Source: a virus (lineage: Duplodnaviria > Caudoviricetes). From it: a DNA stretch of 64,000 nt. A program made the translations under genes and the position numbers. This document shows positions 4,000 through 21,961 of the stretch, piece after piece (position 1 is the first letter of the stretch; each line of letters begins with the position of its first letter). The notes under the pieces were generated by a model that was given only the letters and a program-made list of their open reading frames with translations, was not told the DNA's origin and made no database searches. The stretch is taken from IMG/VR virus record IMGVR_UViG_3300037067_003427, positions 5,505-69,504 of that record, one strand, 5' to 3'.

Positions 4000-6387
4000 T
4001 CAATACCCTGTTATCGATTGTGACGGTACGTACTTCTGTTGTTGAACCTGTGCCGCAAATGCTTTCCATCTTTTATCGTTTGATTCCTTATCCTGAATAT
4101 ATAAACACAGCATTTCTAAACTATCAGCAACATGAGAGGAAAAGTTCTTTTCTGGAACTGGTTTATATTCTTCTCCCGTCGTCTTCGGTTCTTTTTCGTA
4201 ATGATACCCCCCGTTCATTGCCTTGCGAAGATTGTGGCAATTTGGAGATATAATTAGACCCGGTTCGCCACGATACATCTTATTAAGAAAGAATTCAACA
4301 GCACCTACCCTCGGCATAATTGCATTGGTTGGTGCAGGAACTACATTTCTCAATCCTACATCTGGACCTTGAAGAACCTCAAAACACGTTGATTCATCCG
4401 TTGGAGAACGGGAAGTTCCTGCTGGATCTCCAAATCCCATCACGTTCATTCCAAAATACTTCTGTCGAAGCAAAGGAAGTAGTTCATTTTCGCAAAACTG
4501 TCTTATCCCCCCTACCCCAGTCAACTCATCAAGAATCCTTAGTTGACCAAGAGGAGTAATCTGTCCTATGACCACCGTGGGATTAAGTCCAAAGTCAAAT
4601 CCGACAATAACATCTCGTCCTTTAATTGGTTCTAATATATTTGGAGCAACGTGGACATTATCAACAAAACTTCCAAAGACAGGTTTTCCGCTGATGAGGA
4701 ATCCATACTGCCCATGAATATAAACACGGATATACATCTCGCTTTTCCCTTTGGCGAGGTTTTGGTAGTAATTCTTGGCAATATGTTTGGTATTCTCTGC
4801 GTGTGCGGAAAGGCCAGAAGGTTGTTTGAACATTTTGAAATTGTCTGGTTTGATTTTCTCGGCAATATTATAAAGGGTTGAACCTTCGTCTGGAGGGTTT
4901 GTATCCATGAACATTCCATACCATGAAGCACCACCATCTCTTTTTGAAGGATAACGGCCTATACGAGAATCCATGGCCTCTATAATACTCCACGGAATCT
5001 CACGGACTTCATTGAACCATGCCCATGTTACTTCAAGAGAAAGAAGATTGGAAACTTGGTCTGGACGGTCAAGAGCACGAAAGATAACCTCATGATGAAC
5101 GCCGGGAACTTTTGTAAATATATAGGTATGGTCAGTTACCCTCCACTCGCCAAAAATACGTGGAGGAAACCAGTCATGATACGTTTTGATAGTAGTATCG
5201 CGTAGTTGCGTATAACTGTTCCTCACAACAACAGAACGTGACCGCCTTATTCCGTCTGGTCCAGGAACTTGCTCTTGCGCTCTTTTGAAGTCTTCAATAA
5301 CACAACCACTGCTCTTTCCGGAATTACCAGTTATAAAAATTTTATCATTTCTTCTCGCAACAAAAAAACCTGTTTCGGTTTCAAAACAATATTGCCTTTC
5401 TACATATATCTTTTCAGCTAAAGTCTTTTTTGTATCGTGACGCATACCGACAAAAGGACGCGATTGATTTTCGATAACATTGTAACAATCTTGCTGACCG
5501 ACACCTTGATGGATCAATGATATGGACGCCCTGATGCCATGACATGCAAAAACATATTGCATGAAATCTGCGTCTTTCTTTTGTGTTGTTGAAAATATTC
5601 TTACCCCACATCTATTTTCTTCACATCCATCCCAATGAATCATCTCATCAAGAATAATCCCAAGTTGATATTTTGATGATCTCCAATATTTAGTGAGCGT
5701 TTTGTTTCTTTCCGGTGCATCGAAAACATAAATAAATTCCGTTGGTCTTCCGGGATAATTTCGTACTTCAAACTCAATCCCCATACGAGTTAAAAGATAC
5801 GATAACCGTTCTCTTTTTCTAATTCTACGTAAACCAATATAACACTTTAATTCATTACTATAAATTTTCGGAAAGTGTCCATCTGCACATATGGCAACCA
5901 TAAGTCTTAATTCGTCATCGGACAAATCAATACTGCTTTTCCCTTCGTAATTAAATGCAGTCGGAATCATTCCATCCCAACCTGATAATAATTTATTGTG
6001 TTCATCAAAAACTTCTTTGGCGGTTATAACTCTAAACACCTTATTATTATACTTTTTATTAAACAATACTCTATGATTTGGAGTAAGTACCATATCTAAC
6101 CCACGCGATTTAAAGTGGTACATTTCTCCGTTATACGGTTGATTTATGTAATTTACAGGGTTATTGAATGTCATTATATCTGTAGATGGATCATATTGAG
6201 CAATCAAATGATTATCCCACTGATCTATTCTAACCCATCCTTCTTGTGACAAAAATTCAGTGTCTCCAGACAGACAAGCAAATGGTCCCATAAGACAACG
6301 CATCCTTGTGTTATCCATTGCGAACTTCTTGATGGTGGGTACATCAGAATAATCATATAAAACCTGGAAGTCCTTACTATCGTTCAT
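4000..6387 (-). CDS. terL: Terminase large subunit, interrupted by an intein
   Basis: Spliced Walker A GPFA|SGKS; Walker B-like AWFNEVRE; motif MDTNPP; C-terminal RNase H-like nuclease motifs GFDFGLNP and SHVADSLE. Confidence 0.93.
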   Translation of the reverse strand: MNDSKDFQVLYDYSDVPTIKKFAMDNTRMRCLMGPFACLSGDTEFLSQEGWVRIDQWDNHLIAQYDPSTDIMTFNNPVNYINQPYNGEMYHFKSRGLDMVLTPNHRVLFNKKYNNKVFRVITAKEVFDEHNKLLSGWDGMIPTAFNYEGKSSIDLSDDELRLMVAICADGHFPKIYSNELKCYIGLRRIRKRERLSYLLTRMGIEFEVRNYPGRPTEFIYVFDAPERNKTLTKYWRSSKYQLGIILDEMIHWDGCEENRCGVRIFSTTQKKDADFMQYVFACHGIRASISLIHQGVGQQDCYNVIENQSRPFVGMRHDTKKTLAEKIYVERQYCFETETGFFVARRNDKIFITGNSGKSSGCVIEDFKRAQEQVPGPDGIRRSRSVVVRNSYTQLRDTTIKTYHDWFPPRIFGEWRVTDHTYIFTKVPGVHHEVIFRALDRPDQVSNLLSLEVTWAWFNEVREIPWSIIEAMDSRIGRYPSKRDGGASWYGMFMDTNPPDEGSTLYNIAEKIKPDNFKMFKQPSGLSAHAENTKHIAKNYYQNLAKGKSEMYIRVYIHGQYGFLISGKPVFGSFVDNVHVAPNILEPIKGRDVIVGFDFGLNPTVVIGQITPLGQLRILDELTGVGGIRQFCENELLPLLRQKYFGMNVMGFGDPAGTSRSPTDESTCFEVLQGPDVGLRNVVPAPTNAIMPRVGAVEFFLNKMYRGEPGLIISPNCHNLRKAMNGGYHYEKEPKTTGEEYKPVPEKNFSSHVADSLEMLCLYIQDKESNDKRWKAFAAQVQQQKYVPSQSITGY
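5323..6276 (-). mobile_element. Intein (318 aa) with LAGLIDADG homing endonuclease
   Basis: Begins CLSGDTE (Cys38); block B LTPNHRV; LAGLIDADG-like motifs MVAICADG and EMIHWDG; ends YCFETETGFFVARRNDKIFITGN followed by Ser+1. Confidence 0.92.
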
Positions 6388-19298: not shown

Positions 19299-19502
19299 TT
19301 AAGTGTTCTTTTCGATCCTTATGTATGGGATCTTTGCTACAGGAAGTCCGATAATGGGAGACATTTTCACAGCGGAATCAAAAAAAGGAACTCGTTTGGT
19401 ATAAATCCATGAGTTTATGGTTGTAACCTTAAAACCGGCCTTTTTTAATTCCTTGCGATATTTCTTTACCAAAAGTCGAAATTTTGTCTTATTGGTTTTC
19501 AA
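19299..19502 (-). CDS. Small Cro/XRE-like HTH protein
   Basis: 67 aa, basic; ELKKAGFKVTTINSWIYTKRVP resembles an HTH recognition helix. Confidence 0.45.
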   Translation of the reverse strand: MKTNKTKFRLLVKKYRKELKKAGFKVTTINSWIYTKRVPFFDSAVKMSPIIGLPVAKIPYIRIEKNT

Positions 19503-20862
19503 TTATCTCGTATTCCCTTATCCAATCAATCACAGCTTCAGAAAATCCATCAACATGGGTCCATGCGCCATAGCCGACACCGTTCTGAGCGGAGGCAACA
19601 TTAATCAAATAGTTATGCTTTCCAAGCAGACGCGCCTTTGAGGGCGAGTCGTCATAGCCAATTCCGCAATCCTGTTCATCGGTAATGACAATCACGCGGT
19701 CAACGTCACCCTCGGCCTTGTAGACAAAATCCATGACCTGCTTCAAGAAAATGCCTCCACCGCCGAGAGGACGACAAAGCTGATAAATGGCATCCGACAG
19801 AGCGAAGCCGTGGCGGGAAGGAACCAACTGAGTCTTGTGGACTCGCGTACTATCATTCCCCGCTGTCGCGTAAATAATCGGAACTTCGCACAACTCCCTA
19901 ACAAGGATAGCCAATGAACAGGCGACGTTTGCCCGATCAATTTCGGAGTATTTTGATACCGGGTTCCCATACATGCTCCCCGAAACATCAACAACCATTG
20001 CGGTCTTTCCGGGAAGTTTCGTAAATTGCGATAGGCAATTCAGCATGGGAGTCTCAATCGCCTCTTCTGCCCACAGGTTATGTTTGGCGGCTACGATGAA
20101 CCTAAAAGGCAAAACTCGGTCTGTTTTCATTCTCGCTAATGAATCTTGGATAAGAGACTCCGGCACCTTGGCCTCTTTCATGTTACGCAGGTTTCGCAAG
20201 AAAGCCAAGGCCCCCAATTTATTCTCAGAAATCAATCGTTCCCATGTTTCTTTTTTATCTTTTCCAGAAGACAATGCAACTTCCCATGTATCCGGAGGAG
20301 ATAGGGTTCCACAAACAAGATCATTCCAATCAGCAGATTGCAAAACGTCTTTTGGCTTTGCGTGACAAAGGAAAAGAACATCACGAAGTTTTATTGTTTC
20401 GTCACGATTATACTTTGCCAGTTGATAGGCGTTGAATTTTGTAAACGCTGAAGCAAGACCTTTTTTTACCTGAGCAGAAAGTGGTTGCTTGCCTTCTTTC
20501 CAGTATATAGCAAGAAATTCGGTAAGCTCATCTGGGCGCTGAATGACTTTTGCCAACACAGAGGCGGTATTTTTATATCCAATTCTTGCCAATTCACGTA
20601 CCAGTAAAAGTGGAACATGGCGAAGTTTGAACTTTTCTCGTGCTTCAATGGCCAATTCCGCTACTTTTTGTGAATCAACATCATTTACAAGAGAAGCAAT
20701 GCGAGAGGCAACCGTTTCTCCGTCTTCATAAAACTCTCTTTCCCAAAGCATACAAGAGCACACAGACCTTCGTAACTTTTGATAGGCGTTGATGTGTACC
20801 GCTTTTGCTCCTTCGTGGGTGTAAATAGGTTCTTTTTTAACTGTTTTATTCAACTTCGCCAT
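19489..20862 (-). CDS. rsr: Ro60/TROVE-domain RNA-binding protein with C-terminal VWA domain (Rsr ortholog)
   Basis: THEGAKA, LRRSVCSCMLWEREFYEDG, LRHVPLLL, IQRPDELTEFLA, AYQLAKYNR, PDTWEVALS, VVDVSGSM (MIDAS), IVITDEQ; true start MAKLNK follows RBS AAAGGAGG. Confidence 0.92.
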   Translation of the reverse strand: MAKLNKTVKKEPIYTHEGAKAVHINAYQKLRRSVCSCMLWEREFYEDGETVASRIASLVNDVDSQKVAELAIEAREKFKLRHVPLLLVRELARIGYKNTASVLAKVIQRPDELTEFLAIYWKEGKQPLSAQVKKGLASAFTKFNAYQLAKYNRDETIKLRDVLFLCHAKPKDVLQSADWNDLVCGTLSPPDTWEVALSSGKDKKETWERLISENKLGALAFLRNLRNMKEAKVPESLIQDSLARMKTDRVLPFRFIVAAKHNLWAEEAIETPMLNCLSQFTKLPGKTAMVVDVSGSMYGNPVSKYSEIDRANVACSLAILVRELCEVPIIYATAGNDSTRVHKTQLVPSRHGFALSDAIYQLCRPLGGGGIFLKQVMDFVYKAEGDVDRVIVITDEQDCGIGYDDSPSKARLLGKHNYLINVASAQNGVGYGAWTHVDGFSEAVIDWIREYEIIENQ

Positions 20863-20890
20863 ACTTTCTCCCTCCTTTAATGTGATTAAT

Positions 20891-20965
20891 TTGGGGGAAC
20901 AAGCGGTTTTCGGTAGTTGCCTTTCGGCCTTCCCATATGAAGTAACTGAAACCTTCGCCACCCAA
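20891..20965 (-). ncRNA. Y-RNA-like module 3 (about 75 nt)
   Basis: TTGGG-TGGCGAAG-GTTTCAG-TTACTTC...GCC-GAAA-GGC...CGAAAAC-CGCTTGTTC-C-CCCAA; the two ends pair. Confidence 0.7.
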
Positions 20966-20974
20966 AAGATTATA

Positions 20975-21039
20975 ACCAGGGAATAATCGATAACGGTCTT
21001 TTCATTTCAAGTGAAGTATCCGTAATCTTCGCCACTGGT
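20975..21039 (-). ncRNA. Y-RNA-like module 2 (about 65 nt)
   Basis: ACCAG-TGGCGAAG-ATTACGG-ATACTTC...CCGTTAT-CGATTATTC-C-CTGGT; the two ends pair. Confidence 0.7.
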
Positions 21040-21046
21040 ATATTTT

Positions 21047-21174
21047 TGGGGAAGTGGGTAGGAGTCGAACCTACAGCCTCGTCATTATCCTTGAAGTAAC
21101 TCTTATCTTCGCTACCTTTCGGAGAACAGGCGATAAGAGAAATTTTCGCGCTCTACCGCTGAGCTACCACTTCC
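21047..21174 (-). ncRNA. tRNA-shaped Y-like RNA (128 nt): tRNA shell with a 65-nt Ro-binding-type module in place of the anticodon arm
   Basis: Acceptor GGAAGTGG/CCACTTCC + encoded CCA; T8A9; D arm GCTC-AGCGGTA-GAGC; variable loop AGGCT; T arm GTAGG-TTCGACT-CCTAC; the insert carries the same AGCGAAG/TTACTTC motifs as modules 2 and 3. Confidence 0.85.
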
Positions 21175-21203
21175 ATATTTAATTCAAAGATCACTTGGCT
21201 GCG

Positions 21204-21233
21204 ATGATACGCCATGTATAAATTAAATGTCAA
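21204..21233 (-). promoter_or_regulatory. Sigma70-type promoter for the Y-RNA/Ro60 unit
   Basis: TTGACA (21233-21228), 18-nt spacer, TATCAT (21209-21204); predicts a leader of about 20-25 nt before the tRNA-like 5' end. Confidence 0.7.
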
Positions 21234-21287
21234 GCACTTTTTTATTTACCCTCATAAAAAATAATACACCCTGTATGCAGAATTATC

Positions 21288-21315
21288 TTGACATTGATGT
21301 TTTTTGTGCTATAAC
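21288..21315 (+). promoter_or_regulatory. Sigma70-type promoter for the rightward operon
   Basis: TTGACA, 16-nt spacer, TATAAC preceded by an extended -10 TG. Confidence 0.7.
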
Positions 21316-21346
21316 AGAAGCCAAGAGAAAATAAATTGAGGCAATT

Positions 21347-21961
21347 ATGGAAAGATGGAAAGACATACCGGGGTTTGATAAATACGAAATTTCCACGCTT
21401 GGAAGGGTTAGACATAAATTCCATAAACATATTCTTAAATATTCCTATCCATATAACGGGTATCCGCAAGTCAAACTTTCTTTAAATGGTGAACATGGAG
21501 ATAAAGTGGGCGGAATTACGAAATGTGTGCATAGTTTGGTATTTATCACATTTGTGCGCTCTCTTTTAAAAGGAGAAGAAATAAACCACAAAGATAATAA
21601 TCGTGCCAATCCAGCATTGAATAATCTTGAAGTTTTTGCAAACAAAAAAGAGCACGGGAAAGTACATAGAACATTACAATATAGAAATTGCCTTGAGTGT
21701 GGCAAAGAAATTAAACCTAGTAGCCTTTATTGTTCTAGGGAGTGTAGGTTAAAAAACATAAACGTAGAAAGACAGTGTAAATACTGTGGAGGTTCTTTCT
21801 ATATTAGCAAAAAGTTCATTGCGTGGAAAATGAATGATATCAGATATGCTAACGGAGCCGGAATATATTGCTCACGTAAGTGTTTTTATTCTGACCGTAA
21901 AGGGAATCCAATCCGAAGACCGTTTTATCCCTTTGCTATAAAGGAATCGCGAGGGAAATAA
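21347..21961 (+). CDS. NUMOD4-HNH homing endonuclease with C-terminal Cys motifs
   Basis: ERWKDIPGFDKYEISTLGRV (NUMOD4); VHSLV...INHKDNNRANPALNNLE (HNH); YCSREC and YCSRKC repeats. Confidence 0.85.
   Translation: MERWKDIPGFDKYEISTLGRVRHKFHKHILKYSYPYNGYPQVKLSLNGEHGDKVGGITKCVHSLVFITFVRSLLKGEEINHKDNNRANPALNNLEVFANKKEHGKVHRTLQYRNCLECGKEIKPSSLYCSRECRLKNINVERQCKYCGGSFYISKKFIAWKMNDIRYANGAGIYCSRKCFYSDRKGNPIRRPFYPFAIKESRGK

What the first reader, a model, noticed from the sequence alone, without database searches (positions are those of the whole stretch)
21047..21174. Circularly permuted Y RNA built into a CCA-ended tRNA shell with a tRNA-His-like G-1:C73 pair
Seen in sequence: canonical acceptor stem, U8A9, D arm, 5-nt variable loop, T arm (TTCGACT) and encoded CCA. 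The anticodon arm has only 2 bp (CG/CG) and then a 65-nt insert with no anticodon loop. In the insert the Y-type module is permuted relative to modules 2 and 3: the 3' strand comes first, the usual free ends are joined by a CC-GAAA-GG tetraloop, then the GCGAAG strand follows. The acceptor helix can form 8 bp (GGAAGTGG/CCACTTCC). Established: described YrlA RNAs have their 5'/3' ends in the Ro-binding stem and a loop-closed acceptor stem; G-1:C73 is the main identity element for HisRS. Inference: this is the opposite permutation of YrlA. It could be matured by RNase P, possibly aminoacylated (His), and act as an anticodon-less tRNA mimic that carries Ro60 to tRNA-handling machinery. Whether this topology has already been described needs a literature and Rfam check.
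Basis: partly seen in the sequence, partly recalled or inferred. Interest (0 to 1): 0.88.

Follow-up and report, generated by a model that had tools for sequence, protein, structure and literature searches.

The report
Phage Y RNA wired in tRNA order
A 69.5-kb phage encodes, just upstream of its Ro60 gene, a small RNA with the ends and shape of a real tRNA and the Ro60-binding stem of a Y RNA as a capped side arm. This is the known tRNA-like Y RNA (YrlA) in the opposite connectivity, which I found in no paper or Rfam family, and it also occurs in the cultured phage crAss001.

Summary
Window 21174-21047 (- strand) is a 128-nt tRNA-shaped RNA gene (Rfam tRNA 44.8 bits; ARAGORN rejects it). It lies behind a sigma70-like promoter and ahead of two mini Y RNAs and a TROVE/Ro60 gene, in a complete 69.5-kb virus record.

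I found 18 further distinct copies in viral and metagenome contigs, plus two in cultured Bacteroides phage crAss001. In 17 aligned copies, 97% of cells pair, against 73% when shuffled, and 20 of 27 pairs show double changes. These cover an 8-bp acceptor stem, the D and T arms, and a Y-type bulged helix that a hairpin always closes.

Rotating the closed-acceptor Y RNAs of related loci at the acceptor loop makes them colinear with the window RNA (64-73% identity). It is therefore the same RNA with the ends moved. Rfam YrlA weakly hits those relatives and never this form.

- An anticodon-like hairpin is present. The Y arm interrupts the 5' strand of the anticodon stem.
- The -1:73 pair covaries (G:C, U:A, A:U), so histidine identity is not a family trait.

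Processing, Ro60 binding and charging are inferred, not shown. This scan has noted the same layout before on other phage DNA.

The parts
21204..21233 (-). Sigma70-like promoter, TTGACA-18-TATCAT
   Evidence: 11 of 12 consensus matches. A TTGACA box lies 50-65 nt upstream of the element in WIN, L001, L036, L038, L116 and L074.
21175..21203 (-). 5' leader with the motif GAUCUUUGAA; it must be removed to give a tRNA-like 5' end
   Evidence: Sequence. GTTCTTTGAAA-like motif 8-15 nt before the 5' end in many copies. Removal by RNase P is inferred.
21047..21174 (-). Whole tRNA-order Y RNA, 128 nt: G-1 to CCA
   Evidence: Rfam tRNA 44.8 bits. Model R1 130.4 bits, and the only such match in the 69.5-kb virus record.
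21167..21174 (-). Acceptor 5' strand including G-1; pairs with 21057-21050
   Evidence: 8 of 8 pairs show compensatory changes across 17 copies.
21150..21164 (-). D arm GCUC-AGCGGUA-GAGC, with A14 and G18 G19
   Evidence: Invariant U8, A14, G18 and A21 in alignment A1.
21147..21148 (-). Anticodon-stem positions 27-28 (CG), paired with 21081-21080
   Evidence: 27:43 and 28:42 covary (CG, CA/UG, CU/AG, CC/GG).
21132..21139 (-). Distal Y stem, 3'-type strand CUCUUAUC
   Evidence: 8-bp helix with 21107-21100; 6 of 8 pairs show double changes.
21121..21131 (-). Y-helix 3'-type strand GCCUGUUCUCC (internal loop, UU, CU, CC)
   Evidence: Conserved GCYUNUUCC. The CU:AG versus CC:GG change is compensatory in 3 copies.
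21117..21120 (-). GAAA tetraloop capping what are the free ends in ordinary Y RNAs
   Evidence: All 17 copies have a cap hairpin with a stem of 1-8 bp and different sequences.
21108..21116 (-). Y-helix 5'-type strand GGUAGCGAA, the Ro60-binding motif region with bulged U and C
   Evidence: Matches 6 of 7 positions of GNCGAAN0-1G from Chen 2014 (PMC4201824). The clade consensus is GRYGNAG.
21100..21107 (-). Distal Y stem, 5'-type strand GAUAAGAG
   Evidence: helix 3.
21082..21099 (-). Invariant UUACU, then an anticodon-like hairpin UCA-AGGAUAA-UGA
   Evidence: UUACUUC is invariant. Hairpin and 7-nt loop conserved; relatives carry U33-type loops with varied triplets.
21058..21074 (-). T arm GUAGG-UUCGACU-CCUAC
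   Evidence: G53, U54, U55, C56, A58 and C61 are invariant.
21047..21057 (-). Acceptor 3' strand CCACUUC, C73 and encoded CCA
   Evidence: CCA is encoded in 13 of 19 copies and in 30 of 32 true tRNAs of the related loci.
20976..21038 (-). Mini Y RNA (module 2) with ordinary connectivity
   Evidence: The minimum-energy fold gives a terminal bulged stem with GGCGAAG / UUCCCUGG.
20891..20965 (-). Mini Y RNA (module 3) with ordinary connectivity and a GCC-GAAA-GGC hairpin
   Evidence: Sequence and fold.
19489..20862 (-). TROVE/Ro60 gene, 457 aa
   Evidence: Pfam TROVE 6e-18. Full-length match to Thermus phage phiLo Ro60, PDB 9KOP/9L5Y, 1.4e-21.

Best explanation
This is a Y RNA of the YrlA type written in normal tRNA order.

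One transcript from the promoter at 21233-21204 probably carries this RNA, two mini Y RNAs and the Ro60 mRNA. Host tRNA-processing enzymes would cut out the first unit. RNase P would remove the roughly 22-nt leader, possibly leaving G-1 because it pairs with C73. A 3' endonuclease and exonucleases would trim to the encoded CCA.

The product is an L-shaped tRNA body with an 8-bp acceptor stem, D and T arms and an anticodon-like hairpin. A 52-nt side arm leaves the 5' strand of the anticodon stem between positions 28 and 29. That arm is the bulged Ro60-binding helix of Y RNAs, closed by a GAAA cap. The phage Ro60 would bind the arm. The tRNA body would serve as the effector-binding or protective module, as proposed for YrlA.

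Shown here: the sequence, the conserved and covarying structure, homology to closed-acceptor Y RNAs, and the link to TROVE genes. Inferred: transcription, processing, Ro60 binding and function.
For: - Placement. The element sits between a promoter and a TROVE gene, with two ordinary mini Y RNAs between. The TROVE protein matches a phage Ro60 shown to bind phage Y-like RNAs (PMC12135203).
- Copies. There are 19 distinct copies in 16 TROVE loci, plus two beside the TROVE gene of crAss001.
- Covariation. 97.2% of cells pair against 72.8% shuffled; 20 of 27 pairs have double changes.
- Cap. The hairpin is always present but differs in stem and loop.
- Homology. Rotated closed-acceptor units align colinearly at 64-73% identity.
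- tRNA features. The tertiary nucleotides U8, A14, G18-G19, U54-U55-C56 and A58 are invariant.
- CCA. It is encoded in 13 of 19 copies, following the habit of true tRNA genes in related loci (30 of 32).
- Precedent. M. smegmatis YrlA is cut by RNase P and gains CCA in vivo (PMC4201824).
Against: - No RNA data exist for this phage; no RNA run was listed for it.
- No binding or processing was tested.
- Single-sequence thermodynamics slightly prefers another fold of the insert: -39.1 against -37.5 kcal/mol for the comparative structure. The distal Y stem has only about 7% ensemble probability.
- The Ro motif is AGCGAAG, one off the published GNCGAAN0-1G, although the change is compensated.
- A capped Y stem might hinder the strand separation seen when Xenopus Ro binds Y RNA (as summarised in PMC12135203).
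- Some copies lack CCA or have acceptor helices extended to 10-11 bp (L062, L008b), so tRNA-type end processing may not be universal.
Confidence: 0.75

Rival explanations
1. It is a histidine-accepting tRNA mimic. G-1:C73 plus CCA would make the processed RNA a HisRS substrate, and the charged RNA would carry Ro60 to EF-Tu, ribosomes or other tRNA users.
For: G-1:C73 and CCA are present in the window. G:C at -1:73 occurs in 11 of 19 copies but in only 1 of 32 true tRNAs of the related loci. From general knowledge, bacterial HisRS relies mainly on G-1 and C73 and charges acceptor minihelices.
Against: The pair is U:A, A:U or G:U in 7 copies and unpaired in crAss001 copy 1. CCA is missing in 6 of 19. 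Closed-acceptor relatives have 7-8-bp hairpins often closed by C-G next to a tetraloop, so G-1:C73 can be a relic of that closing pair. The anticodon-like loop reads GAU with G33, not GUG.
Confidence: 0.12
2. It is mainly a processing signal. The tRNA shape recruits RNase P and 3' tRNA nucleases to punctuate the polycistronic transcript and release the downstream mini Y RNAs and the Ro60 mRNA. The element itself has no role as an RNP.
For: The element is promoter-proximal and followed within 8-12 nt by the next Y RNA in most loci. In L004 and L008, tandem tRNA-order units lie 6-10 nt apart, like tRNA clusters.
Against: A bare tRNA-like hairpin would be enough for that role. Here a complete, covarying Ro-type helix with its motif is kept inside the element in all copies. 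This reading does not exclude the main one.
Confidence: 0.1
3. It is a decoding tRNA gene with an intervening sequence that is spliced out, giving an Ile-like tRNA.
For: Deleting positions 29-80 would leave a 76-nt cloverleaf with a 5-bp anticodon stem and a 7-nt loop.
Against: The loop has G33. The 'anticodon' changes freely (GUU, UGG, UCU, GCU, UAG, UGU) between near-identical bodies with the same acceptor and discriminator. The insert is a conserved structured Ro-type helix, not a group I intron; Rfam finds none. No bacterial splicing system acts at position 28/29. Closed-acceptor relatives carry the same arm at their termini.
Confidence: 0.03
4. It is a decoy or sensor for host tRNA-targeting defence nucleases. 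The tRNA body with its anticodon-like loop and CCA end attracts such enzymes, and Ro60 then handles the outcome.
For: Anticodon-like 7-nt loops with U33 and R37 and varied triplets recur in this RNA clade. A phage Ro60-like protein counters a defence system in Bas63 (PMC11482910). The crAss001 TROVE gene is an early gene (PMC8375218).
Against: There is no direct evidence. The window's own loop lacks U33. No RNA repair genes lie near the locus.
Confidence: 0.1

Closest known systems
YrlA (Y RNA-like A; Rfam RF02553; Chen et al. 2014, PMC4201824; structure in Wang et al. 2018, bioRxiv 10.1101/312249)
   Same: Encoded beside a Ro60/TROVE gene. Has a bulged helix with the CGAA-type motif and a tRNA-like module with D arm, T arm, acceptor stem and conserved elbow nucleotides. 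Is part of an array with simpler Y RNAs.
   Different: In YrlA the 5' and 3' ends lie in the Ro60-binding stem, the T arm precedes the D arm, and the acceptor stem is a closed hairpin without CCA. Here the ends lie in the acceptor stem (with CCA), the D arm precedes the T arm, and the Ro-type stem is a capped hairpin. In the Rfam YrlA consensus the anticodon stem runs straight into the Y stem. Here an anticodon-like hairpin branches off. RF02553 gives no match.
[quoted passage not shown] 2014)
   Same: Ends up with an open acceptor stem bearing CCA on a Ro60-bound tRNA-like RNA.
   Different: That RNA becomes two pieces, with both the acceptor and the Y stem open. The window RNA would be a single chain with the Y stem closed.
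Closed-acceptor Y RNAs of related phage TROVE loci (for example L013:2818-2935, L020:2529-2648, L021:2847-2966)
   Same: Same sequence blocks in the same cyclic order, at 64-73% identity after rotation. Same split anticodon arm.
   Different: Only the position of the ends differs. These units score 31-45 bits with RF02553.
Circularly permuted tRNA genes of algae and archaea, and the dimeric-tRNA origin model for YrlA (discussed in 10.1101/312249)
   Same: Both concern interconversion between tRNA order and permuted order.
   Different: Those are decoding tRNAs restored by splicing. Here both orders appear to be end products, and neither decodes.
[quoted passage not shown]
   Same: A predicted non-decoding RNA in normal tRNA order that sometimes sits next to Rsr.
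   Different: As cited, it resembles an authentic tRNA and no Ro-type arm is mentioned. I could not read the paper, so this was not tested.

Membership tests
YrlA (Rfam RF02553 / Chen 2014) | Encoded next to a Ro60/TROVE gene | tested here: met
   The element ends 185 nt upstream of the TROVE start, on the same strand. The same holds in 16 loci.
YrlA (Rfam RF02553 / Chen 2014) | Ro60-binding bulged helix carrying GNCGAAN0-1G | tested here: inconclusive
   The window has AGCGAAG, 6 of 7, with the A paired to a compensating U. Relatives have GGCGNAG or GGUGNAG. The helix covaries. Binding was not tested.
YrlA (Rfam RF02553 / Chen 2014) | tRNA-like module with D arm, T arm, acceptor stem and elbow nucleotides | tested here: met
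   RF00005 at 44.8 bits. Invariant U8, A14, G18-G19, U54-U55-C56 and A58.
YrlA (Rfam RF02553 / Chen 2014) | RNA ends in the Ro-binding stem, T arm 5' of D arm, acceptor stem closed by a loop | tested here: not met
   The order is acceptor 5' strand, D arm, Y arm (capped), T arm, acceptor 3' strand, CCA.
YrlA (Rfam RF02553 / Chen 2014) | Reaches the Rfam gathering score of 69 bits | tested here: not met
   No RF02553 match at E up to 10 in 20500-21500, nor at E up to 0.1 in L036 and L038. Closed-acceptor relatives score 31-45 bits.
tRNA (RF00005) | Cloverleaf with 7-bp acceptor stem, D and T arms, at or above the gathering score | tested here: met
   44.8 bits against 29, model positions 1-71.
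tRNA (RF00005) | Continuous anticodon arm with a U33-type 7-nt loop, able to decode | tested here: not met
   The 5' strand of the stem is interrupted by a 52-nt arm, and the loop AGGAUAA has G33. ARAGORN gives no call.
tRNA-His | G-1:C73 pair | tested here: met
   G21174 and C21050. Across copies, however, the pair covaries with U:A and A:U.
tRNA-His | GUG anticodon and histidylation | tested here: not met
   The loop triplet is GAU. Charging cannot be tested with these tools.
Intron-containing tRNA | Insert is a recognisable self-splicing or enzyme-spliced intron | tested here: not met
   No intron family matched in the permissive Rfam scan. The insert is a conserved Y-type helix.

The most novel reading that the evidence does not exclude
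The tRNA-order form is a working tRNA-end mimic. It would be cut by RNase P, carry a real CCA end and, in the G-1:C73 copies, be charged with histidine. The phage Ro60 particle could then dock on tRNA-handling machinery (CCA enzyme, synthetase, EF-Tu, ribosome or tRNA-targeting defence nucleases). On this reading it also represents the ancestral link between tRNAs and Y RNAs, with the permuted YrlA layout arising from it by tandem duplication.
Probability: 0.15. Interest if true: 0.88.

Novelty: new variant of a known kind. Interest (0 to 1): 0.7.

Why it matters
Y RNAs are thought to descend from tRNAs, but until now only the permuted, closed-acceptor layout (YrlA) had been described.

- **Origin.** Here the un-permuted layout and the permuted one occur in the same family of phage Ro60 loci. 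They are interleaved on the Ro60 tree, and tandem arrays exist that could convert one into the other. That makes the origin question directly testable.
- **Biogenesis.** The layout suggests a simple route for a Y RNA: universal tRNA-processing enzymes define both ends.
- **Free CCA end.** It puts a free CCA end on a Ro60 partner, which opens the possibility of CCA repair, charging or recognition by tRNA-directed enzymes.
- **A tractable system.** The design is present but unannotated in crAss001, a cultured gut phage whose TROVE gene is transcribed early. Experiments are therefore feasible.
- **Annotation.** tRNA finders either miss these genes or miscall the permuted relatives as tRNA-Thr, -Pro, -Ser or -Pyl.

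Tried and rejected
- **RNA evidence.** The run search listed only DNA holders (landfill and groundwater metagenomes). No RNA holder was listed, so I did not lay reads.
- **Cultured phages by DNA similarity.** blastn of the locus against cultured phages found only the TROVE coding region of crAss-like phages. The crAss001 RNAs turned up only with the covariance model.
- **Host.** Three further copies lie on MAG contigs binned to Clostridia, Deltaproteobacteria and Methanophagales. The bins conflict and the contigs look viral, so I infer no host.
- **False members.** High model scores in L111, L101/L103, L065, L077 and L100 are read-throughs across tandem closed-acceptor units. I excluded them after inspection. 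L016:4476-4587 and L031 were also rejected.
- **Thermodynamics.** z-scores are weak (-2.2 for the whole RNA, -1.1 for the insert). The case rests on covariation, not folding energy.
- **A Bacteroidetes-type promoter** in the leader motif. I dropped this in favour of the conserved TTGACA box.
- **Papers not held.** Burroughs and Aravind 2016, Sim and Wolin 2018, and Sim et al. 2020 could not be read.
- **Not used.** Structure prediction, complex prediction and protein database searches were not needed.

Full report
**What is there**

On the - strand, 21174-21047 reads as a tRNA gene with a long insert. Rfam's tRNA model matches it end to end at 44.8 bits (gathering score 29), skipping 65 nt in the anticodon arm. 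ARAGORN calls no tRNA anywhere in the window.

A sigma70-like promoter, TTGACA-18-TATCAT, lies at 21233-21204. That leaves a leader of about 22 nt.

Downstream on the same strand are:
- two small hairpin RNAs with the same conserved motifs but ordinary connectivity, at 21038-20976 and 20965-20891;
- a 457-aa TROVE/Ro60 gene at 20862-19489 (Pfam 6e-18), which matches the Ro60 of Thermus phage phiLo over its full length (PDB 9KOP, 1.4e-21).

The window belongs to a 69,504-bp virus record rated complete. This is the only such element in it.

**Is the structure real?**

I fetched 32 viral, 80 metagenomic and 10 genome-collection loci encoding relatives of the TROVE protein. Ten upstream elements shared the window's layout. 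RNAalifold on their MAFFT alignment predicted an 8-bp acceptor stem, the D stem, the T stem and an 8-bp stem inside the insert. Compensatory changes occur in 18 of 25 pairs.

A covariance model built from them found more. After inspection there are 19 distinct elements in 16 loci, scoring 90-131 bits.

On the 17-sequence model alignment:
- 97.2% of cells form standard pairs, against 72.8% in column shuffles (0 of 500 shuffles reach the observed value);
- with partners slid by 1-3 columns, only 42-47% pair;
- 20 of 27 pairs show changes on both sides.

This alignment was fitted to the model. The independent MAFFT/RNAalifold result gives the same helices.

**The capped Y helix**

In every copy the segment between UUCC (or UUCU) and GG(C/U)G folds into a hairpin of this form: CC or CU, a cap stem of 1-8 bp, a loop, the returning cap stem, a bulged U or C, then GG or AG.

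The cap differs from copy to copy:
- CC/GG with GAAA or GUAA;
- UC/GA with GGAA;
- CGC/GCG with UUCG;
- CGG/CCG with a longer loop (5-9 nt, depending on how the stem is drawn);
- UCUCCC/GGGAGA with GCGA.

The helix under the cap has the anatomy of the Ro60-binding stem: a bulged pyrimidine, the (G/A)GCGNAG strand opposite GCYUNUUCC, then a variable 8-bp stem. The window's G-to-A change in the motif (AGCGAAG) is matched by C-to-U on the other strand. The same double change is seen in L004b and L074.

**Relation to known YrlA**

The same locus set holds 55 units (45 distinct) with the published YrlA order: motif strand, T arm, closed acceptor hairpin, D arm, return strand. Rfam's YrlA model RF02553 matches such units full length, but only at 31-45 bits against a gathering score of 69. 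It gives nothing on the window, L036 or L038.

I rotated the closed-acceptor units at the acceptor loop and aligned them with the tRNA-order elements. The window RNA is 64-73% identical to them over 114 columns, with essentially no gaps. That is the same range as its identity to other tRNA-order copies, 64-77%. It is therefore the same RNA with the chain ends moved from the Y stem to the acceptor stem. Wang et al. describe YrlA as resembling a circularly permuted tRNA (10.1101/312249); this is the un-permuted counterpart.

**Correction on the anticodon arm**

Comparative data show more. Positions 27-28 together with 81-83 pair with 91-95 and enclose a 7-nt loop.

All five pairs form in 8 of 17 tRNA-order copies and in about half of the closed-acceptor units. 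Both parts of the stem vary in a compensatory way (CG, CA/UG, CU/AG, CC/GG; UCA/UGA, CGC/GCG, CGA/UCG, CCA/UGG).

The Y arm is thus a 52-nt branch leaving the 5' strand of the anticodon stem. Most loops look like anticodon loops (pyrimidine-U-NNN-purine-A), with triplets that change freely. The window's loop, AGGAUAA, lacks U33.

A second subgroup (L001, L007, L004b, L008b) instead has a continuous 4-5-bp anticodon stem with the Y arm in place of the loop. The Rfam YrlA consensus has no such side hairpin, which explains the low scores of this phage clade.

**The -1:73 pair and CCA**

| Feature | tRNA-order copies (n = 19) | True tRNA genes of the same loci (n = 32) |
|---|---|---|
| -1:73 | G:C 11, U:A 4, A:U 2, G:U 1, broken 1 (L006) | Watson-Crick in 14; G:C in only 1 |
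| CCA encoded | 13 | 30 |

The extra pair is therefore a real feature of the element, and the CCA follows local tRNA-gene habit. But the identity of the pair is not fixed, so histidine identity cannot be the conserved function.

Closed-acceptor relatives have hairpins of 5-11 pairs, mostly 7-8, often capped by UUCG or GNRA loops. G-1:C73 can be the former closing pair of such a loop. That is inference.

In L062 and L008b the helix extends to 10-11 bp and there is no CCA.

**Evolution**

On a TROVE protein tree of 97 sequences, loci with tRNA-order elements fall in at least 8 separate places even when only well-supported branches are counted. One clade is enriched, with 8 of its 13 members. Rows marked 'n' include truncated flanks, so absences are soft.

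Tandem closed-acceptor units with identical distal stems exist (L014, L020). In such arrays, the D arm and return strand of unit 1 can pair with the motif strand and T arm of unit 2. Losing the outer halves would then give the tRNA-order form. Direction cannot be decided from these data.

**Thermodynamics**

For the single sequence, the comparative structure is 1.6 kcal/mol above the minimum free energy fold. That minimum-energy fold uses a competing hairpin between GGUAGC and the invariant GUUACU. The insert alone does fold into the capped Y helix. Energy z-scores are weak, so the argument rests on covariation.

**A cultured example**

In Bacteroides phage crAss001, the 900-nt unannotated gap after TROVE gene gp96 contains Y-like hairpins and two tRNA-order elements:
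- L125:4115-4262 at 77 bits, with no -1:73 pair and no encoded CCA;
- L125:4370-4512 at 34 bits, with a degenerate D arm.

The TROVE gene there is an early gene, described only as a possible ribonucleoprotein component (PMC8375218, PMC10136315).

**Literature and earlier notes**

Searches for YrlA, Ro60 or Y RNA together with phage or tRNA-like terms returned no description of this layout. Three relevant papers are not held.

This scan has already noted the same design on other phage and giant-virus DNA. Those are unchecked AI notes and I do not count them as evidence. Two first-reader notes on other DNA led me to test the anticodon-like loop.

**Verdict**

The finding is real, conserved and undescribed in what I could read. 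It is a new variant of a known kind. The mechanism (RNase P and CCA maturation, Ro60 binding to the capped arm) is inferred at about 0.75. Histidine charging is at about 0.12.

Noticed in passing
L125:3842-4748 (Bacteroides phage crAss001, MH675552.1, about 95964-96870): The unannotated gap after TROVE gp96 holds Y-like hairpins and two tRNA-order elements (4115-4262 and 4370-4512). An SPFH/band-7 gene (gp91) lies about 2 kb further on.
   Followed up: partly
window 21116-21095 (- strand) and all relatives: The invariant GG(U)RGC of the Y motif strand can pair with the invariant GUUACU just downstream. This competing hairpin appears in the minimum-energy fold and might be an alternative state when Ro60 is absent.
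   Followed up: partly
window 21175-21203 (- strand); L001, L007, L008, L038, L050 leaders: A GTTCTTTGAAA-like motif lies 8-15 nt before the 5' end of the element in many loci. Its role is unknown.
   Followed up: no
L006:2696-2824: In this copy the acceptor strands do not match. The 5' half resembles L004a and the 3' end resembles L004b, so it is probably a recombinant or decaying copy.
   Followed up: partly
L016:2414-2985: One array carries a tRNA-order element, a true tRNA-Lys and a closed-acceptor Y RNA side by side.
   Followed up: no
L014:2130-2202: A 73-nt match to both ends of the tmRNA model (65 bits), that is, a tRNA-like domain without the mRNA part, upstream of a Y RNA array.
   Followed up: no
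L002:2812-2885, L011:2668-2737, L017:1978-2044, L022:2833-2901: ARAGORN calls parts of closed-acceptor Y RNAs as tRNA-Thr, -Pro, -Pyl and -Ser. Phage tRNA annotations may therefore contain such false calls.
   Followed up: partly
window 21347-21961 (+ strand): A NUMOD4-domain ORF, probably a homing endonuclease, lies divergently just upstream of the Y RNA promoter.
   Followed up: no
L062:1811-1944 (same as L063): Here the tRNA-order element lies downstream of the TROVE gene. Its acceptor helix extends to about 10 bp and it has no CCA.
   Followed up: no
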